The translations under genes were made by a program, and so were the position numbers. Below the pieces are notes generated by a model. That model had not been told where the DNA came from. It ran no database searches and saw nothing but the letters and a program-made list of their open reading frames with translations. Positions 2,801 through 37,196 of a stretch of 64,000 nucleotides of DNA are shown piece by piece. The DNA lies in assembly GCF_055900595.2 (NCBI RefSeq), contig NZ_CM148325.1. One strand, given 5' to 3'. Within the stretch, counting starts at the first letter, position 1. Each line of letters opens with the position of its first letter.

Positions 2801-4237
2801 ATGAATCGTGATTCCTTTTACCCAGCCATCGCCTGTTTTCCTCTGTTACTGATGCTGGCCGGGTGTGCGCCTATGCATGAAACCCGCCAGGCGTTAAGCC
2901 AGCAAACACCCGCTGCGCAAGTTGACACCGCATTACCTACGGCGCTGAAAAATGGTTGGCCAGACAGCCAATGGTGGCTGGAGTATCACGATAATCAACT
3001 CACTTCATTAATTAACTATGCACTGCAGAACGCACCGGATATGCAGGTGGCTGAACAGCGCATTCAGCTGGCTGAAGCCCAGGCGAAGGCAGTTGCCACT
3101 CAGGATGGCCCTCAGATCGATTTTTCTGCGGATATGGAGCGGCAAAAAATGTCGGCAGAAGGGCTAATGGGGCCGTTTGCTCTGAACGATCCTGCCGCAG
3201 GTACGACCGGTCCGTGGTACACCAACGGTACTTTTGGCTTAACGGCGGGCTGGCATCTCGATATCTGGGGAAAGAATCGGGCGGAGGTAACTGCTCGCCT
3301 GGGTACGGTTAAAGCACGAGCGGCGGAACGCGAGCAAACCCGCCAATTGCTGGCTGGCAGCGTTGCCCGCCTTTACTGGGAGTGGCAAACCCAGGCAGCG
3401 TTAAACACTGTTTTGCAGCAAATCGAAAAAGAGCAGAACACCATTATCGCGACCGATCGCCAGCTATATCAGAACGGGATTACTTCTTCAGTTGAAGGTG
3501 TGGAAACCGATATTAATGCCAGCAAGACCCGGCAGCAGCTCAACGATGTCGTGGGAAAAATGAAAATTATTGAGGCACGGTTAAGCGCACTTACAAATCA
3601 CCAGATAAAGTCATTGAAGCTTAAACCGGTTGAGTTGCCGAAAGTGGCAAGTCAGCTTCCTGATGAACTGGGGTATTCATTGCTGGCACGGCGGGCAGAT
3701 TTGCAGGCAGCGCATTGGTACGTTGAGTCATCGTTAAGCACCATTGATGCGGCAAAAGCGGCATTTTACCCTGACATCAACCTGATGGCCTTCCTGCAAC
3801 AGGATGCGTTGCACTTAAGCGATTTGTTCCGTCATTCCGCGCAGCAAATGGGCGTTACGGCAGGCCTGACGCTACCCATTTTCGATAGTGGTCGTCTTAA
3901 CGCCAACCTCGATATTGCAAAAGCCGAAAGCAACTTGTCTATCGCCAGCTACAACAAAGCGGTGGTTGAAGCGGTGAATGACGTGGCGCGGGCAGCCAGT
4001 CAGGTTCAGACGCTGGTGGAGAAAAACCAGCATCAGGCGCAAATTGAGCGCGATGCCTTGCGTGTGGTAGGTCTTGCGCAGGCCCGCTTTAACGCGGGTA
4101 TCATTGCTGGTTCCCGCGTCAGCGAAGCCAGGATCCCGGCGCTGCGTGAGCGGGCCAATGGCCTGTTATTGCAAGGGCAGTGGCTGGATGCCTCCATTCA
4201 ACTCACTGGTGCGTTGGGCGGGGGGTACAAACGCTGA
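2801..4237 (+). CDS. mdtQ: Outer-membrane efflux lipoprotein (NodT/OMF family), intact
   Basis: 478 aa from MNRDSFYPAIACFPLLLMLAGCAP (lipobox LAGC); ORF-track start 2711 is an upstream TTG extension. K-12 mdtQ (yohG) is a pseudogene by my recollection; here the frame is open. Confidence 0.8.
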   Translation: MNRDSFYPAIACFPLLLMLAGCAPMHETRQALSQQTPAAQVDTALPTALKNGWPDSQWWLEYHDNQLTSLINYALQNAPDMQVAEQRIQLAEAQAKAVATQDGPQIDFSADMERQKMSAEGLMGPFALNDPAAGTTGPWYTNGTFGLTAGWHLDIWGKNRAEVTARLGTVKARAAEREQTRQLLAGSVARLYWEWQTQAALNTVLQQIEKEQNTIIATDRQLYQNGITSSVEGVETDINASKTRQQLNDVVGKMKIIEARLSALTNHQIKSLKLKPVELPKVASQLPDELGYSLLARRADLQAAHWYVESSLSTIDAAKAAFYPDINLMAFLQQDALHLSDLFRHSAQQMGVTAGLTLPIFDSGRLNANLDIAKAESNLSIASYNKAVVEAVNDVARAASQVQTLVEKNQHQAQIERDALRVVGLAQARFNAGIIAGSRVSEARIPALRERANGLLLQGQWLDASIQLTGALGGGYKR

Positions 4238-4289
4238 TGATATACGCCTTCTATACTTAACGTTTATTCAGCGTTAAGTGGAGAACTCG

Positions 4290-5051
4290 ATGGTACAGGT
4301 CGCGATTATTACCGCTTCCGATTCGGGGATCGGCAAAGAGTGCGCGTTATTACTGGCGCAGCAGGGTTTTGATATTGGTATTACCTGGCACTCAGATGAA
4401 GAAGGGGCAAAAGATACCGCGCGTGAGGTGGTTAGCCACGGCGTACGTGCGGAGATGGTGCAGCTCGATCTCGGTAAACTGCCAGAGGGGGCACTGGCGC
4501 TGGAGAAACTTATTCAACGGCTGGGGCGCATCGATGTACTCGTGAATAATGCGGGCACAATGACCAAAGCGCCGTTTCTTGATATGGCTTTCGATGAGTG
4601 GCGCAAGATTTTTACCGTTGATGTTGATGGTGCATTTTTATGCTCGCAAATTGCGGCCCGCCAGATGGTGAAACAAGGGCAGGGCGGTCGCATCATCAAC
4701 ATTACGTCGGTACATGAGCATACGCCGCTGCCGGATGCCAGCGCCTATACAGCTGCTAAACATGCACTCGGTGGGCTAACCAAAGCGATGGCGCTTGAGC
4801 TGGTCAGGTATAAGATTTTGGTGAATGCAGTCGCGCCTGGGGCTATCGCCACACCAATGAATGGCATGGATGACGGCGACGTGAAGCCCGACGCGGAGCC
4901 TTCGATTCCCCTGCGGCGTTTCGGCGCAACGCATGAGATTGCCAGCCTGGTGGCGTGGTTATGCTCTGAAGGCGCAAATTACACCACCGGGCAGTCGTTA
5001 ATTGTCGATGGTGGCTTTATGCTGGCGAATCCGCAGTTCAACCCAGAATAG
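4290..5051 (+). CDS. yohF: Short-chain dehydrogenase/reductase YohF
   Basis: 253 aa; TASDSGIGKE cofactor-binding motif and YxxxK active-site motif (YTAAKHAL). Confidence 0.85.
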   Translation: MVQVAIITASDSGIGKECALLLAQQGFDIGITWHSDEEGAKDTAREVVSHGVRAEMVQLDLGKLPEGALALEKLIQRLGRIDVLVNNAGTMTKAPFLDMAFDEWRKIFTVDVDGAFLCSQIAARQMVKQGQGGRIINITSVHEHTPLPDASAYTAAKHALGGLTKAMALELVRYKILVNAVAPGAIATPMNGMDDGDVKPDAEPSIPLRRFGATHEIASLVAWLCSEGANYTTGQSLIVDGGFMLANPQFNPE

Positions 5052-5094
5052 CACAGTGAGGTGCGTGGTTATTTCAATGGGTAATATTTGGTAG

Positions 5095-5180
5095 GCATGA
5101 TAAGACGTGCAAGCGTCGCATCAGGCATGGTGCGACGGATGTCGGATGCGGCGCAAACCGCCTTATCCGAGGCAATGGTT
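5095..5180. repeat. REP (palindromic unit) sequences between convergent yohF and yohD
   Basis: GCGTCGCATCAGGC / GCCTTATCCG-type REP motifs. Confidence 0.5.
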
Positions 5181-5759
5181 TTACGCCTGATCATCCGGCT
5201 TTTTCTTCCCGCGCCGTTTCAGCCACCAGCGCACGCCAACCACCAGAACCACGACCAGAATCAACCAGACCCAGTGCTTCAAATGCTGGTCGAGATTGTG
5301 CAACCACGGCGCAATCACCTGACCACCAGCATAACCGATAGTGGTAAAAATCAACGCCCAGGCAAATGCGCCGAGAATATTCAGCGGCAGAAAGATTTTC
5401 GGCGGCAGCTGGCTGGCACCAATCAGCGTCGGGCCAATGACCCGAAAGCCATACATAAAACGCGTACCAATGACAAACAGATACGGATGGCGCTGGATAA
5501 GTTTCTGCGCCCGCTCAATTTTATCCTGATGTTTCGAGAAACGGCGTAATAGCTTGCCGCCAAAGCGCCGCCCGCACAGATAAAGCACCTGGTCGCCAAT
5601 CATGCCGCCAAGCGCCACAGAAAGTACCACCAGCGGGAACTTTAATAACCCCTGATGTGCCGCAACGCCTCCCAGCAACGTCACGGTTTCACCTTCCGCC
5701 AGACTTCCGAGCACCAGCGCAGCATAACCATATTGTGAGATGAGTGTATTGAGATCCAT
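5181..5759 (-). CDS. yohD: DedA-family inner membrane protein YohD
   Basis: 192 aa from MDLNTLISQYGYAALVLG...; ORF-track start trimmed. Confidence 0.85.
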   Translation of the reverse strand: MDLNTLISQYGYAALVLGSLAEGETVTLLGGVAAHQGLLKFPLVVLSVALGGMIGDQVLYLCGRRFGGKLLRRFSKHQDKIERAQKLIQRHPYLFVIGTRFMYGFRVIGPTLIGASQLPPKIFLPLNILGAFAWALIFTTIGYAGGQVIAPWLHNLDQHLKHWVWLILVVVLVVGVRWWLKRRGKKKPDDQA

Positions 5760-5928
5760 AGGCCCGTCTGTCTCCCTTTGGTTGCTTGTAAGCATACACC
5801 CTGTGAATCATTCACGCTGAAAAAGGACGCTCATCAGACGGTGCAAATTCTATGAATGCACAAAAAATAATCACAAGCTGACTTATACTTGAACTGTCAG
5901 GTTCATGAACTCACAACAAGGGGGCGGT

Positions 5929-6516
5929 ATGAGCCATGTCTGGGGACTGTTTTCCCATCCCGATCGTGAAATGCAGGTGATTAATCGCGAAAACGAAACG
6001 ATTTCTCACCATTACACCCACCACGTTTTGCTGATGGCGGCGATTCCGGTGATTTGCGCCTTCATTGGCACCACACAAATTGGCTGGAATTTTGGCGATG
6101 GCACCATCCTGAAGTTATCCTGGTTTACCGGACTGGCGCTGGCCGTCTTGTTTTATGGCGTTATGCTGGCTGGGGTCGCGGTGATGGGGCGGGTCATCTG
6201 GTGGATGGCGCGCAATTATCCGCAGCGTCCGTCACTTGCGCACTGCATGGTCTTTGCGGGCTACGTTGCAACTCCGCTGTTTTTAAGCGGTCTGGTGGCG
6301 CTTTATCCGCTGGTCTGGTTGTGTGCGCTGGTCGGCACGGTGGCGCTGTTTTACACCGGCTACCTGCTTTATCTCGGTATTCCGAGCTTCCTGAATATCA
6401 ACAAAGAGGAAGGCCTTAGCTTCTCCAGTTCGACGCTGGCGATTGGCGTGCTGGTACTGGAAGTGCTGCTCGCCCTTACCGTTATACTATGGGGCTACGG
6501 TTATCGTTTGTTCTAG
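5929..6516 (+). CDS. yohC: Yip1-family inner membrane protein YohC
   Basis: 195 aa from MSHVWGLFSHP..., multi-pass hydrophobic; GGGG RBS upstream. Confidence 0.85.
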   Translation: MSHVWGLFSHPDREMQVINRENETISHHYTHHVLLMAAIPVICAFIGTTQIGWNFGDGTILKLSWFTGLALAVLFYGVMLAGVAVMGRVIWWMARNYPQRPSLAHCMVFAGYVATPLFLSGLVALYPLVWLCALVGTVALFYTGYLLYLGIPSFLNINKEEGLSFSSSTLAIGVLVLEVLLALTVILWGYGYRLF

Positions 6517-6689
6517 CAAGTTCTTTTGCGTTGCATTGCTGGCGTAAATGTCAGCAATGCAGCATTTCCTCACGATTCTCCTTTGACGATCGCACTTTTT
6601 GCTCGTTATGATGGCGTTGCTAGCCTCAGTAAATCCTTACTCCGGCGGTGCGCAACCTGTGCGCGTGAACCACTATCTGAATGCTCATC

Positions 6690-7622
6690 ATGCCGAAATT
6701 TCGAGTTTCTTTATTTAGCCTGGCCCTGATGCTGGCTGTGCCTTTTGCACCGCAGGCCGTTGCGAAAACGGCAGCCGCTACCACCGCTTCACAGCCGGAA
6801 ATTGCCTCCGGTAGCGCGATGATTGTTGATCTGAATACCAACAAAGTGATCTATTCGAACCACCCGGATTTGGTGCGTCCGATTGCGTCTATCAGTAAAT
6901 TAATGACCGCGATGGTTGTGCTGGATGCACGATTGCCGCTGGATGAAAAACTGAAAGTGGATATCAGCCAGACGCCGGAGATGAAAGGGGTCTATTCGCG
7001 CGTACGACTGAACAGCGAAATCAGCCGTAAAGATATGCTGTTGCTGGCGCTGATGTCTTCAGAAAACCGCGCGGCGGCAAGCCTTGCGCACCATTATCCC
7101 GGTGGTTACAAAGCCTTTATTAAGGCGATGAATGCGAAAGCGAAATCGCTCGGAATGAACAACACGCGCTTTGTTGAACCGACCGGATTGTCGGTGCATA
7201 ACGTTTCAACTGCCCGTGACTTAACCAAACTGCTCATTGCCAGCAAACAATATCCGTTGATTGGTCAGTTAAGTACTACCAGGGAAGATATGGCAACCTT
7301 CTCTAACCCGACGTATACGCTGCCGTTCCGCAATACTAACCATCTGGTGTATCGCGATAACTGGAATATTCAGTTAACCAAAACGGGCTTTACCAATGCG
7401 GCGGGCCATTGTCTGGTGATGCGTACGGTTATCAATAATAAACCGGTAGCGTTGGTGGTGATGGACGCGTTTGGCAAATATACCCATTTTGCCGATGCCA
7501 GCCGCCTGCGTACCTGGATTGAAACCGGTAAAGTGATGCCTGTTCCGGCAGCAGCGTTGAGCTATAAAAAACAAAAAGCCGCCCAGATGGCGGCGGCGGG
7601 GCAGACGGCACAGAACGATTAA
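6690..7622 (+). CDS. pbpG: D-alanyl-D-alanine endopeptidase PBP7
   Basis: 310 aa; signal peptide; SxxK motif (SISKLMT) of class A/C serine peptidases. Confidence 0.9.
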
Positions 7623-33715: not shown

Positions 33716-33988
33716 ATGTCTCATACAATCCGTGATAAACAGAAACTGAAAGCGCGTGCCAGTAAGATTCAGGGCCAGGTCGTGGCGCTCAAGAAAATGC
33801 TCGACGAGCCGCACGAATGCGCAGCTGTTCTACAACAGATTGCTGCTATCCGTGGCGCGGTAAACGGCCTGATGCGCGAAGTGATTAAGGGGCATCTGAC
33901 GGAACACATCGTTCACCAGGGGGATGAGCTAAAACGTGAAGAAGATCTGGATGTCGTTCTGAAGGTGCTGGATTCTTATATCAAATGA
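33716..33988 (+). CDS. rcnR: Ni/Co-responsive repressor RcnR (CsoR/RcnR family)
   Basis: 90 aa; conserved H-C-H-H metal-ligand pattern of the family. Confidence 0.92.
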
Positions 33989-34097
33989 AAGTGCCTAATA
34001 TGGCCGTAGTTGAGGCAATAAATAGAGGGACAAGTGACGTTAAGCTGAATTAGAGTAAATGGCGTGAGGACACACGCCATTCGAGGATATAGTTTGA

Positions 34098-34412
34098 TTA
34101 ATTTTCGAAAAATTGCTTCACAGCCCAGCCACCATGACCACCTGGAGTTATGAATGAAACAAAACCTTTGTCATCGACGCTCTGGATTTCTACTGTCATT
34201 GATTCATCTAACACGCGACATTTATTGGATGTAATGAGACTCAGCATAGCCTGTTGGTCATTGTCCTGAATGTAACTGATCATCTCGTAAAAGTCAGTTA
34301 ACTTTTTACAGTTAAATGTACCTTCTTTAAGTGTTGCGCTGTCTCCGTGACTTAGTGCGAATGCATTTGGCATCATTGCCACAAAGATGACGGTAACGAG
34401 TAGTTTTTTCAT
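34098..34412 (-). CDS. Small secreted protein, unknown function (signal peptide, 2 Cys)
   Basis: 104 aa, MKKLLVTVIFVAMMPNAFA signal peptide; low-GC context; function not recognisable by eye. Confidence 0.6.
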   Translation of the reverse strand: MKKLLVTVIFVAMMPNAFALSHGDSATLKEGTFNCKKLTDFYEMISYIQDNDQQAMLSLITSNKCRVLDESMTVEIQSVDDKGFVSFITPGGHGGWAVKQFFEN

Positions 34413-34421
34413 TGTAGCCTC

Positions 34422-34769
34422 TTATAATTCAGAACATTCACTGATGTTGTAAGTGCCTTTTCTACCATCATCGTTTACGAGATGTAGCACGAAGATGATG
34501 GGATTGGCATCAATGAAAGATACAGAGACGTTCCCGCTTTCGGTGCTATACATCTTTGCAATCTGTTTTTCACCAATATATGAAAGATCCCAACTCACTC
34601 CGTTCAAGCTAAAATGCATCTGTTTGCCGTCAATATCGATGGAGGATTGTGCCGTAACGGTTTTCCCATTGCTGCCAATTTGACCCTGCTGAAGAGCATC
34701 ACATTTATAGGAGCTTGCATAAGTAAATAGAGGTAGTAGCAGAAGTGCAGCAAAAATTTTACTCTTCAT
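34422..34769 (-). CDS. Small secreted protein, unknown function (signal peptide, 2 Cys)
   Basis: 115 aa, MKSKIFAALLLLPLFTYASS signal peptide; tandem with the 104-aa ORF 9 bp downstream. Confidence 0.6.
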   Translation of the reverse strand: MKSKIFAALLLLPLFTYASSYKCDALQQGQIGSNGKTVTAQSSIDIDGKQMHFSLNGVSWDLSYIGEKQIAKMYSTESGNVSVSFIDANPIIFVLHLVNDDGRKGTYNISECSEL

Positions 34770-35137
34770 ATTTTCCCTTTGCTTGGATTTGAGTTACCTA
34801 TTTTGGGGTAGTCATTATAAAACTATTAATTAGTAAAATGAACAAGTTTTCATTTGTTTAGTAATGGTATTGTTTAGGTTTGAAATTATTACGTACTTTC
34901 ATAGCAATAGGTTGGATAAACAGCAGTTCAGGGAACAAGTTGCACTATCTACATACTTTCCCGCTTTCCATTGTATGTTAGGTAATAGATAGCCTTTGCC
35001 CGTAAGACTAAAAATATTAGAAATGACTCATTCGAATACCTTCTATTCACCTTAATATAGGTTTGATTATTGTAATCGTTTAATGTGTCTTATGGATTTT
35101 TTCCTACTTTTCATTTGCATAATATAGGGGGCACAGC

Positions 35138-35257
35138 ATGCTCTTGAAATTAATTATTAAGATATTTAAATTTTACAGCACACAACTACTTTTCGTTGTC
35201 TTATGTGTTGAACGTACTTCGAGTATAGGTAGGGTTGTATATATATTGCGTGGGTAG
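35138..35257 (+). CDS. Candidate small hydrophobic peptide (39 aa)
   Basis: ORF MLLKLIIKIFKFYSTQLLFVVLCVERTSSIGRVVYILRG preceded by TAGGGGG about 7 nt upstream; lies in the AT-rich islet; below the ORF-track cutoff; could be spurious. Confidence 0.25.
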   Translation: MLLKLIIKIFKFYSTQLLFVVLCVERTSSIGRVVYILRG

Positions 35258-35822
35258 AGTTAGAATAGAGGAGGCATCATTTATAGAATATTCAAGAACG
35301 TTAACCTGTGATCAATAAATAAAAATATCAAATGGTGTTCAAACATATTTTTCTATGAAAAATCCAGCCATCTATGATGAATTTTTAGATCCATTTTAAT
35401 TAAAGTATGATTATGAACCAATATTTAGCCAAGAATGGTGGTATAGCGCGTATCCAATGACACCGGAAAACGCATCTATGAAGTCCTTGTTTATCTCTAT
35501 AAGAGGAAATCAACACTAATAAAATATAGTGATGTAACACATCGAGCAGGTTGCTCTGATGCTGGTCTTCAACTGTGGCTTAAACAGCTATCAAACTTCG
35601 GTGTTATTGAGATGAAAGAATTATCTTTCTCAACTTTCAATCTCAAAAAGCTAGAGGAAATAGACCTTAATTATTCCACTCTCTAAACTTATCTCTTTAT
35701 TTAAAGTAAAAATGAAAATATTATGGTATCAGCTACGTGGTGGTAACTGGTGTTTATGATCATAGGTACACATATACAGGGAACCCTGGAAAACAAAAGT
35801 AATATATTGATGATTTCGTTTG

Positions 35823-36062
35823 TTATAACTTCGTGGTATCAAGTCCGGCGGCTTTGAGTCGCTCGGTAAGATTTCTCATTTTGCTGAACTCTGTACCAAA
35901 GCTGGCTTTAAGTCCTACACCTTCGCAAAACTCTTTTGCCGTGACGTTTTTAAGATGGTCAGCGTATTTGATCATCTGGAGGTGCATTTCCATCGTTTGG
36001 CTATTTCGTGGTGCGCTGCTAATGGCTTGCTTAATGTTCTCGTAGATCTGGGTTTCTGTCAT
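35823..36062 (-). CDS. Small putative DNA-binding protein (79 aa), unknown family
   Basis: ORF with a GGTGAGA RBS; central helix-turn-helix-like segment (VTAKEFCEGVGLKASFGTEFSKMRNL); AT-rich upstream region with 12-bp direct repeats. Confidence 0.55.
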   Translation of the reverse strand: MTETQIYENIKQAISSAPRNSQTMEMHLQMIKYADHLKNVTAKEFCEGVGLKASFGTEFSKMRNLTERLKAAGLDTTKL

Positions 36063-36269
36063 TTTTTATCTCACCTATCAAATTTAGATAAATAATATAA
36101 ATTAGATAAATAAGATAATCAATAGTTTTTACCATATGAATAATGGATGTGGATTGTTTCTTTTTCATTTCTGATATGGAGTACAAAATGGGGTCACAAT
36201 GAAGAAGCGATGAATGGAGGCGAGCTTGCATCTGCAAGCCTCTTCCCCTAATCTGGCACAAAATATAGA

Positions 36270-36407
36270 GATTCAACCAAACGACTCGGGGTGCCCTTCT
36301 GCGTGAAGGCTGAGAAATACCCGTATCACCTGATCTGGATAATGCCAGCGTAGGGAAGTCACGGACCACCAGGTCATTGCTTCTTCACGTTATGGCAGGA
36401 GCAAACT
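36270..36407 (+). promoter_or_regulatory. TPP (thi-box) riboswitch in the thiM leader
   Basis: Sequence AACCAAACGACTCGGGGTGCCCTTCTGCGTGAAGGCTGAGAAATACCCGTATCACCTGATCTGGATAATGCCAGCGTAGGGAAGTC... matches the E. coli thiM aptamer and expression platform; the anti-SD region overlaps the thiM RBS. Confidence 0.9.
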
Positions 36408-37196
36408 ATGCAAGTCGACCTGCTGAGTTCCGCGCAATCTGCGCACGCGTTACACCTTTTTCACCAACATTCCCCTCTTGTGCATTGCATGACCAATGAT
36501 GTGGTGCAAACCTTTACTGCCAATACCTTGCTGGCGCTCGGTGCATCGCCAGCGATGGTTATCGAAACCGAAGAAGCCAGTCAGTTTGCGGCTATCGCCA
36601 GTGCCTTGCTAATTAACGTCGGCACGCTGACGCAGCCACGCGCACAGGCGATGCGTGCTGCCGTTGAACAGGCAACACACTCTCAAACCCCCTGGACGCT
36701 TGATCCGGTCGCGGTTGGCGCACTCGATTATCGTCGCCGTTTTTGTCATGAACTTTTATCTTTTAAACCGGCAGCGATACGTGGTAATGCTTCGGAAATC
36801 ATGGCATTAGCTGGCGTTGCTAATGGTGGACGGGGAGTGGACACCACTGACGCCGCAGCTAATGCGATACCCGCTGCACAAACACTGGCACGGGAAACTG
36901 GCGCAATCGTCGTGGTCACAGGCGAGGTGGATTATGTTACCGATGGTCGTCGCACCGTTGGCATTCACGGCGGCAATCCGTTAATGACCAAAGTGGTAGG
37001 AACTGGCTGTGCATTATCGGCAGTTGTCGCTGCCTGTTGTGCATTACCTGGCGATATGCTGGAAAATATCGCATCTGCCTGTCACTGGATGAAACAAGCC
37101 GGAGAACGCGCCGTCGCCAGAAGTGAAGGGCCTGGCAGTTTTGTTCCCCATTTTCTTGATGCGCTCTGGCAATTGACGCAGGAGGTGCAGGCGTGA
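36408..37196 (+). CDS. thiM: Hydroxyethylthiazole kinase
   Basis: 262 aa; 4-bp overlap with thiD. Confidence 0.92.

What the first reader, a model, noticed from the sequence alone, without database searches (positions are those of the whole stretch)
34098..34769. Tandem pair of small secreted two-cysteine proteins
Two adjacent co-oriented ORFs (104 and 115 aa) each have a classical signal peptide and two cysteines in the mature part, 9 bp apart. This arrangement is typical of periplasmic immunity or inhibitor proteins (lysozyme-inhibitor-like or effector-immunity-like), possibly orphaned from a lost toxin gene. No family assignment is possible by eye.
Basis: inference. Interest (0 to 1): 0.55.

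Follow-up and report, generated by a model that had tools for sequence, protein, structure and literature searches.

The report
Two-gene periplasmic cassette, decayed island
Two real, conserved genes for small exported disulfide proteins form a self-contained accessory cassette, the surviving piece of a decayed mobile island next to thiM in some E. coli (including O157:H7); what they do is unknown, and a protective role in the cell envelope is my best guess.

Summary
Two minus-strand ORFs, A (34098-34412, 104 aa) and B (34422-34769, 115 aa), lie 9 nt apart. Each has a Sec-type signal peptide and exactly two conserved cysteines in the mature part. Both are under strong purifying selection (dN/dS 0.04-0.16).

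The pair sits in a 2.3 kb AT-rich insert between rcnR and the thiM TPP riboswitch, present in 339 of 5426 complete E. coli genomes. In Klebsiella, Citrobacter and other E. coli, homologues lie in intact integrase-bearing islands that duplicate this riboswitch. There they occupy a slot with a conserved promoter region and terminator, beside a serine recombinase and variable anti-phage cargo. A, B and B-paralogues swap within that slot. A-like genes also occur in phage and phage-plasmid contigs.

No secreted toxin gene is adjacent in any context examined. The "inhibitor/immunity-like" reading stays plausible but unproven. "Orphaned from a lost toxin" is not supported. Moderate interest.

The parts
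34422..34769 (-). Gene B: 115-aa precursor with an 18-aa Sec signal peptide; 97-aa mature all-beta protein. Its two Cys lie in the first and last strands of the model.
34098..34412 (-). Gene A: 104-aa precursor with a 19-aa Sec signal peptide; 85-aa mature SH3/Tudor-like barrel with an inserted helical hairpin lying between the two Cys.
34413..34421 (-). 9-nt B-A spacer carrying a GAGG ribosome-binding site. The 9-nt spacing is kept in Klebsiella and Citrobacter, and also where a B-paralogue replaces A.
   Evidence: Sequence; gene coordinates.
34058..34081 (-). Hairpin AATGGCGTG-N6-CACGCCATT followed by a T-rich tail: probable intrinsic terminator of the B-A unit and the 3' edge of the conserved cassette.
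   Evidence: Terminator scan hit. The GGCGTG..CACGCC stem is conserved after A in all genera with variable loops, and also after B' (L011) and B'' (L025). Homology to other genera ends at 34054-34059.
34770..34838 (-). Conserved 5' region of the cassette: AAGGGA ribosome-binding site and a -10 hexamer TATAAT (34814-34819, minus strand).
   Evidence: Alignment of upstream regions from four genera shows conserved TTTTATA(A/C)TGA and AAAGG. blastn homology ends at 34838. There is no good -35, so the consensus scan did not call it. Inference only.
33989..36276 (.). The whole insert, about 2.29 kb at 30-41% GC, between the rcnR stop codon and the thiM TPP riboswitch. It is a decayed remnant of integrative island(s).
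   Evidence: K-12 has about 110 bp here instead. GC profile. Full insert in 339 of 5426 complete E. coli genomes. Intact islands at the same site in E. coli SCU-102 and Klebsiella.
34919..34996 (+). Possible fossil of the C-terminal end of the island tyrosine integrase.
   Evidence: tblastn of the Klebsiella island integrase, residues 405-430 of 434: 54% identity over 26 aa, E = 0.011 in the 64 kb window. Weak.
35823..36062 (-). 79-aa HTH-like protein, the other intact gene of the island remnant.
   Evidence: Pfam PF24718 HTH_73, E 7e-31. It lies at the thiM-proximal end of the intact island in E. coli SCU-102. One database protein (P0042) is a fusion of its N-terminus with the C-terminus of a B-paralogue.
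36277..36373 (+). thiM TPP riboswitch, the attachment site of the island family.
   Evidence: Rfam RF00059, 71 bits. Two annotated riboswitch copies flank the intact island in L025. A 74-bp piece at 96% identity is duplicated at both ends of the Klebsiella island.

Best explanation
**What it is (well supported).** B-A is a compact, self-contained accessory transcription unit (own -10 element and ribosome-binding sites, two ORFs, a terminator hairpin; about 34054-34838).
- It belongs to a family of integrase-bearing islands that insert into, and duplicate, the TPP riboswitch in front of thiM.
- In this E. coli the island has decayed. The integrase, the serine recombinase and the anti-phage cargo are gone, and only B-A and a small HTH_73 gene remain intact.
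- The two products are unrelated. After Sec export and signal-peptide cleavage each should fold in the periplasm into a single small domain, probably braced by one disulfide.
  - A is an SH3-like barrel whose helical hairpin would be pinned at its base.
  - B is an 8-9-stranded barrel that would be closed by a first-to-last-strand disulfide.

**How it most likely works (inferred).** Each protein acts on its own as a stoichiometric periplasmic binder or inhibitor. It would protect the carrier cell's envelope from something arriving from outside: the peptidoglycan hydrolase or injection machinery of a superinfecting phage, or a muramidase from a competitor or host. That would make them envelope-level counterparts of the cytoplasmic defence cargo carried beside them. 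T4 Spackle and MliC/PliC work this way.

**My own probabilities.** Cassette or island remnant encoding real periplasmic proteins: about 0.85. Protective binder or inhibitor role of any kind: about 0.4. B being specifically a muramidase inhibitor: about 0.15.
For: **Real exported proteins.**

**Acquired DNA.** The insert is absent from K-12 and AT-rich.

**Island context.**
- Klebsiella L002-L004: B-A, resolvase, TIR-STAND NTPase, integrase, with the riboswitch piece duplicated at both ends.
- Citrobacter L005-L007: helicase ... B-A ... resolvase, HigB/M78/Beta_protein, SIR2, integrase.
- L011/L012: B-B', resolvase, FRG, Abi_alpha.
- L008-L010 and L016: XRE regulator divergent from A, then resolvase and an Eco29kI restriction-modification pair.
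- E. coli SCU-102 L025: integrase, HNH, B'' divergent from XRE, recombinase ... HTH_73, between two TPP riboswitch copies.

**Slot behaviour.**
- The XRE-to-A and XRE-to-B'' intergenic regions are homologous up to the ATGAAAAA start, then diverge.
- B' replaces A with the same 9-nt spacing.
- The same GGCGTG..CACGCC terminator stem follows A, B' and B''.
- The adjacent serine recombinases are only 30-45% identical, while A stays about 80% identical.

**Mobile-element spread.** A-like genes lie in accessory regions of phage contigs next to terminase genes, and in Cronobacter phage-plasmid-like replicons, beside other small exported or membrane proteins.

**Retention after decay.** The cassette is intact in the E. 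coli lineages inspected (window strain, EDL933, MLI023K1) and is covered at 80% or more in all 339 carrier genomes. A is identical at protein level across those three lineages. B-A differ by 0.6-1.0% against 2.0-2.3% for the flanking non-coding DNA.

**Fold.** B's structural neighbours include five small periplasmic lysozyme or peptidoglycan-hydrolase inhibitors and a T6SS immunity protein.
Against: - No experiment or expression data were available, so the function is inferred from context and a generic fold.
- The B model is uncertain: only one of five AF2 models is confident (84 against 50-62) and the alignment is shallow.
- There is no sequence relation to MliC and no PADLOC family (only a marginal HEC-01B hit, E 0.019).
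- dN/dS is low, with no sign of the diversifying selection often seen in exclusion or immunity proteins.
- B was not found in any phage collection.
- The promoter has only a -10 match, and the regulator genes found next to the slot elsewhere are missing here, so expression in this strain is unknown.
Confidence: 0.4

Rival explanations
1. Orphan immunity proteins. A and B would neutralise periplasm-acting interbacterial toxins such as T6SS amidases or muramidases, or colicin M/pesticin-like bacteriocins. They would be kept on a mobile island as acquired interbacterial defence without the cognate toxin.
For: - Periplasmic location and disulfides.
- Clusters of unrelated small exported proteins in the islands. 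A third secreted two-Cys protein (68-74 aa) is divergently transcribed from B in Citrobacter and L011. A 97-aa membrane-anchored two-Cys protein follows A-like genes in phages.
- The variants are interchangeable in one slot.
- Association with recombinases and defence cargo.
Against: - No homologue was found next to any toxin, Rhs, VgrG, CDI or bacteriocin gene in any context examined.
- No match to any known immunity family in Pfam.
- The family is very narrow: A is in 2 of 100,044 species-representative genomes.
- A-like genes sit in phage genomes, which suits phage-phage exclusion better.
Confidence: 0.15
2. Host-fitness or virulence-type morons that are not inhibitors. B would be a lipocalin-like carrier of a small hydrophobic ligand. 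A would be an SH3b-like module that binds peptidoglycan or a protein. Together they would modify envelope physiology, stress tolerance or host interaction, in the way Bor or SodC do on prophages.
For: - Lipocalin-like, avidin, YceI and NlpE-like proteins are as close to B as the lysozyme inhibitors are.
- Strong purifying selection.
- Retention in the O157:H7/O55:H7 lineage after the island decayed.
Against: - No specific family match.
- Consistent placement beside anti-phage cargo and recombinases rather than virulence genes.
- A and B-type genes are interchangeable in one regulated slot, which is hard to reconcile with two different physiological roles.
Confidence: 0.2
3. Island-specific function. 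The exported proteins would serve the mobile element itself, for example entry exclusion against related elements or control of its induction or transfer, and would be functionless relics in E. coli.
For: - Almost every island variant carries at least one A- or B-type gene at the same place, next to its regulator (XRE) and serine recombinase. They behave as near-core genes rather than random cargo.
Against: - In the three E. coli lineages inspected the cassette is intact, with promoter-like element and terminator, although every mobility gene is gone.
- It evolves more slowly than the surrounding remnant DNA.
- A-like genes occur in unrelated element types (phage-plasmids, lambda-like terminase-bearing contigs).
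Confidence: 0.15
4. Chance ORFs or decaying pseudogenes in junk island DNA.
For: They lie in an AT-rich, largely non-coding remnant.
Against: - dN/dS is 0.04-0.16 over saturated synonymous divergence.
- Signal peptides and cysteines are conserved down to 33-40% identity.
- Both give confident fold predictions.
Confidence: 0.02

Closest known systems
MliC/PliC periplasmic inhibitors of c-type lysozyme (Pfam PF09864), with the structurally similar Brucella PhiA and Neisseria ACP
   Different: - No Pfam match even at E <= 10, and hhalign against E. coli MliC gives 0.45% probability.
- 5-11% identity in the structural alignments.
- The MliC loop motifs as I recall them (SxSGAxY, YxxxTKG; own knowledge) are absent. 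B's own conserved motifs are C-x-A-[LI]-Q-x-G-[QH] and [IV]-G-[EQ]-K-x-I-A-K-M-Y.
- B is not a lipoprotein.
- It is encoded on a mobile island rather than as a core gene.
Phage morons and superinfection-exclusion proteins that act in the envelope (lambda bor, T5 llp, phi80 cor, T4 sp/Spackle)
   Same: - A small autonomous transcription unit with its own promoter-like element and terminator, inside the accessory region of a temperate mobile element.
- Base composition differs from the host's.
- The product is exported.
- It is placed next to the element's repressor-type regulator and to defence cargo.
- A-like genes occur in phage genomes.
   Different: - No sequence similarity to any of these proteins; the PHROG families hit are all of unknown function.
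- Spackle is helical and Bor, Llp and Cor are lipoproteins (own knowledge), whereas A and B are soluble beta-rich domains.
- No exclusion phenotype has been tested.
Periplasmic T6SS or bacteriocin immunity proteins, including orphan immunity genes on mobile elements
   Different: No cognate effector is adjacent in any genome examined, and there is no membership of a known immunity family.
Bacterial SH3 (SH3b) and Tudor-like small beta-barrels
   Different: No Pfam SH3 family match. A carries a 30-residue helical hairpin between its two cysteines. This combination matched no annotated family.

Membership tests
MliC/PliC lysozyme inhibitors (PF09864), for B | Match to the Pfam PF09864 profile | tested here: not met
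   hmmscan of B against Pfam-A gives no family even at E <= 10.
MliC/PliC lysozyme inhibitors (PF09864), for B | Profile-level similarity to a bona fide member (E. coli MliC) | tested here: not met
   hhalign of the B-family profile (A5) against K-12 MliC gives probability 0.45%. A PDB sequence search with the profile found no inhibitor.
MliC/PliC lysozyme inhibitors (PF09864), for B | Small 8-stranded antiparallel beta-barrel exported to the periplasm | tested here: met
   [not shown]
MliC/PliC lysozyme inhibitors (PF09864), for B | Conserved inhibitory loop motifs (SxSGAxY and YxxxTKG; recalled from the literature, not checked here) | tested here: not met
   Reading the B alignment shows no such motifs. 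The conserved blocks are CxA[LI]QxG[QH] and [IV]G[EQ]KxIAKMY.
MliC/PliC lysozyme inhibitors (PF09864), for B | Inhibition of c-type lysozyme | not testable with these tools
   Needs an enzyme assay with purified mature B.
Toxin-linked periplasmic immunity proteins | The gene, or a homologue, lies adjacent to a cognate secreted toxin or effector gene in at least some genomes | tested here: not met
   Neighbour lists for about 15 loci show recombinases, regulators, helicase and cytoplasmic defence systems, but no Rhs, VgrG, CDI or bacteriocin genes. The sampling is limited because the family is rare.
Toxin-linked periplasmic immunity proteins | Located in the compartment where the toxin acts (periplasm) | tested here: met
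   Sec-type signal peptides are conserved in nearly all homologues examined, and there is no lipobox. Rule-based, not a trained predictor.
Mobile-element moron or accessory cassette | Autonomous unit with its own promoter and terminator | tested here: met
   Conserved -10 TATAAT/TATACT and ribosome-binding site upstream of B. Conserved GC hairpin with T-rich tail after A, B' and B''. In silico only; transcription was not shown.
Mobile-element moron or accessory cassette | Sits in a mobile element, is variably present, and has atypical composition | tested here: met
   Integrase-bounded islands with a duplicated att site. Present in 339 of 5426 E. coli genomes and 2 of 100,044 species representatives. 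GC 30-41% against 50-55% in the flanks.
Mobile-element moron or accessory cassette | Expressed from the resident element and confers a host phenotype | not testable with these tools
   Needs RNA-seq, proteomics and phenotype assays.
SH3b domains, for A | Match to a Pfam SH3 family profile | tested here: not met
   The only Pfam hit is DUF4369 at i-Evalue 0.041, which is not significant.
SH3b domains, for A | SH3-like five-strand barrel topology | tested here: met
   [not shown]

The most novel reading that the evidence does not exclude
A and B (with the B-paralogues, and possibly the 68-74-aa secreted protein next to them in intact islands) are new, interchangeable periplasmic defence proteins. 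They would be superinfection-exclusion factors or inhibitors of incoming peptidoglycan hydrolases. They sit in a dedicated, regulator-controlled swap slot of a previously undescribed family of integrative defence islands that target the thiM TPP riboswitch. B would then be a sequence-unrelated new family of MliC-like hydrolase inhibitors present in E. coli O157:H7.
Probability: 0.2. Interest if true: 0.55.

Novelty: new member of a known kind. Interest (0 to 1): 0.33.

Why it matters
- Both proteins are uncharacterised orphan families: no Pfam or NCBIfam match, and PHROG families of unknown function. They are present in the whole O157:H7/O55:H7 lineage and in some other E. coli.
- If they are envelope-level protective factors, they would extend the content of defence islands from cytoplasmic systems to the periplasm. 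B would add a new family of hydrolase inhibitors or exclusion proteins.
- The context has some interest of its own. It is an island family that uses a riboswitch as its attachment site and regenerates it. It has a small cassette slot with conserved promoter and terminator boundaries in which unrelated exported proteins are exchanged.
- Otherwise this is an ordinary leftover of horizontal transfer.

Tried and rejected
- **Paralogy of A and B.** hhalign aligns only the signal peptides, at 2.9% probability. Rejected.
- **Family searches that found nothing.** NCBIfam (only a spurious FimI hit far below cutoff), Pfam, PADLOC (marginal HEC-01B hit for A, E 0.019, treated as noise), and PDB sequence searches with profiles.
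- **The RefSeq name "outer membrane protein" for A.** It has no support in any search, and the protein is a small soluble domain.
- **Deeper homologue searches.**
  - The word-indexed profile search for A added no distant relatives.
  - The full HMMER search for B found only a handful of paralogues at about 40% identity and one spurious repeat protein.
  - B was not found in GenBank phages, IMG/VR or plasmids, apart from one E. coli replicon labelled as a plasmid.
- **A link to the neighbouring rcnR/rcnA/rcnB nickel-cobalt genes or to the yeh fimbrial operon.** Rejected: K-12 has those genes without the pair, and in other genera the pair is not next to them.
- **Mobile-cassette repeats flanking the pair.** Only short, chance-level repeats were found.
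- **Literature.** Guessed O157 locus tags and thiM/rcnR/integrase terms gave nothing relevant. No expression data were found.

Full report

Yes. The window carries two co-oriented minus-strand ORFs. B lies at 34422-34769 (115 aa) and is followed by A at 34098-34412 (104 aa).
- The spacer is nine nucleotides (GAGGCTACA) and holds a GAGG ribosome-binding site.
- Both N-termini have the layout of Sec signal peptides: Lys-rich start, hydrophobic core, and AFA|L (A) or TYA|S (B) at the cleavage site. Neither has a lipobox.
- These features persist in nearly all of the 29 full-length homologues checked, even though the signal region is less conserved than the mature part (57% vs 83% and 69% vs 83% identity). 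One B homologue lacks the N-terminal Lys/Arg.
- Every homologue has exactly two cysteines in the mature part.
- A's two cysteines are invariant even in homologues 33-37% identical. B's C-terminal cysteine is invariant across paralogues about 40% identical, and its N-terminal cysteine is conserved wherever that region is present.
- The genes are not chance ORFs. Between genera dN/dS is 0.04-0.16 while synonymous sites are close to saturation.

**2. What the proteins are**

A and B are not paralogues. Neither matches Pfam, NCBIfam or PADLOC, nor any PDB sequence. Each matches only a small PHROG family of unknown function.

*Protein B.*
- The model of mature B has pLDDT 84.3, but the other four models score 50-62. 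It is an all-beta protein of 8-9 strands with the cysteines in the first and last strands.
- Foldseek against AFDB50 gives no hit at E <= 0.001. The weak hits are a mix of "lipocalin-like" and "C-type lysozyme inhibitor domain" proteins.
- At sequence level B is not an MliC.

**3. Where the pair sits**

The window is an E. coli chromosome segment running yehB-yehA-rcnB-rcnA-rcnR, then the insert, then the TPP riboswitch, thiM and thiD.
- K-12 has about 110 bp between rcnR and the riboswitch.
- Here that stretch is replaced by about 2.29 kb (33989-36276) of 30-41% GC DNA, against 50-55% in the flanks.
- The insert holds only three intact genes: A, B and a 79-aa HTH_73 protein (PF24718).
- The same insert is in 339 of 5426 complete E. 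coli genomes, including the O157:H7 and O55:H7 strains listed.

**4. What it comes from**

Homologues elsewhere lie in intact islands.
- **Klebsiella.** The order is thiM, riboswitch, about 3.4 kb, B-A, serine recombinase, TIR-STAND NTPase, tyrosine integrase, then a second 74-bp copy of the riboswitch segment (96% identical). The island is therefore bounded by a duplicated att site inside the TPP riboswitch.
- **E. coli SCU-102.** An intact island of about 7.9 kb lies between two annotated TPP riboswitch copies. It carries an integrase (78% identical to the Klebsiella one), an HNH protein, a 115-aa B-paralogue (B'', about 40% identical to B), a divergent XRE regulator, a serine recombinase, four hypothetical genes and the HTH_73 gene.
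- **Citrobacter.** B-A lie between a helicase-containing block and a recombinase with HigB/M78/Beta_protein/SIR2 cargo.
- **L011/L012.** A B-paralogue (B', P0038) replaces A with the same 9-nt spacing, and is followed by a recombinase, FRG and Abi_alpha.
- **L008-L010 and L016.** A occurs alone, divergent from an XRE regulator 70% identical to that of SCU-102, and is followed by a recombinase and an Eco29kI restriction-modification pair.

The window copy is what is left after these mobility and cargo genes were deleted. A weak trace of the integrase C-terminus may survive at 34919-34996 (E 0.011).

**5. A swap slot with conserved edges**

- Homology between E. coli and the other genera is limited to 34054-34838. 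That is about 70 bp upstream of B, both genes, and about 45 bp downstream.
- The upstream piece has a conserved -10 hexamer (TATAAT here, TATACT elsewhere) and a ribosome-binding site.
- The downstream edge is a GC hairpin (GGCGTG-loop-CACGCC) with a T-rich tail. Its stem is conserved after A in all genera and also after B' and B'', while the loops vary.
- The XRE-to-A region (L008) and the XRE-to-B'' region (L025) are homologous up to the ATGAAAAA start codon region and then diverge.
- The recombinases downstream belong to three lineages only 30-45% identical, whereas A stays about 80% identical.

So unrelated exported proteins are exchanged within one regulated slot. This suggests they are functional alternatives. 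It also shows they are not an obligate pair.

**6. Wider distribution**

- A-like genes (33-37% identical, with the same signal peptide and cysteines) occur on Cronobacter sakazakii replicons. I read these as phage-plasmids because they carry PhoH, Gp49, primase, integrase and a "porphyrin biosynthesis protein".
- A-like genes also occur on IMG/VR contigs a few kb from small and large terminase and portal genes.
- In each case they sit beside other small membrane or exported two-cysteine proteins.
- In Citrobacter and L011 the gene divergent from B is itself a 68-74-aa secreted two-cysteine protein.
- B-type genes were not found in phage collections.
- The family is rare: A is in only 2 of 100,044 species-representative genomes.

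**7. Retention in E. coli**

Between the window strain, EDL933 and a Malian isolate:
- The A protein is identical (2-3 synonymous changes).
- B differs in 2 of 348 nt.
- The adjoining non-coding remnant differs by 2.0-2.3%.
- The flanking core genes differ more: rcnR by 3.3-3.7% and thiM by 4.6-7.2%.

The cassette is thus the best-conserved part of the remnant. Selection appears to act on the host-borne genes after the island itself died.

**8. Mechanism**

*Shown (in silico):* real genes, Sec-type signal peptides that predict export, two conserved cysteines per mature protein, single-domain fold models, an autonomous cassette, mobile-island origin, interchangeability, and purifying selection.

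*Inferred:* each protein works alone in the periplasm as a binder or inhibitor. It would protect the envelope from an incoming hydrolase or injection machinery, that is, superinfection exclusion or hydrolase inhibition. The reasons are:
- the consistent placement beside anti-phage cargo and next to the element's repressor-type regulator, which is a typical place for lysogen-expressed protective genes (own knowledge);
- the presence of A-like genes in temperate phages;
- B's resemblance to small periplasmic hydrolase inhibitors.

I put about 0.4 on this class of function and about 0.15 on B being a muramidase inhibitor.

*Rivals:* orphan immunity to interbacterial toxins (0.15), a non-inhibitor host-fitness role (0.2), and an element-specific role (0.15). 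Non-functional ORFs are essentially excluded.

**9. Comparison with known systems, and novelty**

- The cassette behaves like a phage moron.
- B has the fold and size of MliC/PliC/PhiA/ACP but fails every sequence-level membership test.
- A is an SH3-like barrel with an unusual helical insertion between its cysteines.
- No toxin partner exists in any context examined, so the "orphaned immunity gene" reading lacks its key support.

I file this as a new member of a known kind: an accessory cassette of a mobile island that encodes exported proteins of unknown function. Interest is moderate. The island family's use of the thiM TPP riboswitch as att site, and the swap slot, are the more unusual aspects. 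I found no description of them in the searchable literature, but that library is incomplete.

Noticed in passing
window 36277-36373; L025 2059-2154 and 9949-10045; L002 4159-4256 and 14529-14602: The thiM TPP riboswitch is the attachment site of an integrative island family. Intact islands in E. coli SCU-102 and Klebsiella are flanked by two copies of the riboswitch, or of a 74-bp piece of it, so integration regenerates a riboswitch in front of thiM.
   Followed up: partly
L005 7248-7472 (-), L011 7252-7458 (-): The gene divergently transcribed from B in intact islands is a third small secreted two-cysteine protein (68-74 aa; MRKVMLMMSVFLFSQLATA|GQITM...C...C...). The intergenic region holds palindromes (TTGATCAA, ATCGATCGAT) that look like operator sites. 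This gene is absent from the window.
   Followed up: partly
window 35823-36062 (-): A 79-aa HTH_73 (PF24718) protein is the only other intact gene of the remnant. It lies at the thiM-proximal end of intact islands and of other decayed variants such as BL21(DE3). One database protein (P0042) fuses its N-terminus to the C-terminus of a B-paralogue, the footprint of a deletion in some genome.
   Followed up: partly
window 34919-34996 (+): A short stretch translates to something resembling the last 26 residues of the island tyrosine integrase (54% identity, E 0.011). If real, the E. coli remnant derives from two tandem islands joined by deletion.
   Followed up: partly
window 33716-33988 and 36408-36907, compared with 33989-36276: Between E. 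coli lineages the flanking core genes are more divergent (rcnR 3.3-3.7%, thiM 4.6-7.2%) than the insert (at most 2.3% over most of it, although 36063-36276 is about 13% divergent). This suggests the insert spread between lineages by recombination, or that the locus is a recombination hotspot.
   Followed up: no
window 34770-35822: About 1 kb of 30-34% GC DNA has no ORF over 46 aa and no Rfam match. It is presumably decayed island sequence and a likely H-NS target, and it lies directly upstream of the B promoter region.
   Followed up: partly
[not shown]
   Followed up: no
L026 (E. coli BL21(DE3)) 2994-7522: BL21(DE3) carries another decayed variant at the same thiM site (HTH_73-like gene, DUF6998, HTH proteins). 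An IS1 lies next to it, and the rcnR-rcnA-rcnB-yehA-C genes are absent from the stretch shown, with only a truncated DUF2574 pseudogene between apbC and the IS1.
   Followed up: no
L014 4098-4391 and L021 723-1016: In phage and phage-plasmid contexts the A-like gene is followed by a 97-aa protein with an N-terminal membrane anchor and two cysteines. In L014 and L015 a polytopic membrane protein of about 146 aa follows that; in L020 a 153-aa one follows the A-like gene directly. None has a PHROG match.
   Followed up: partly
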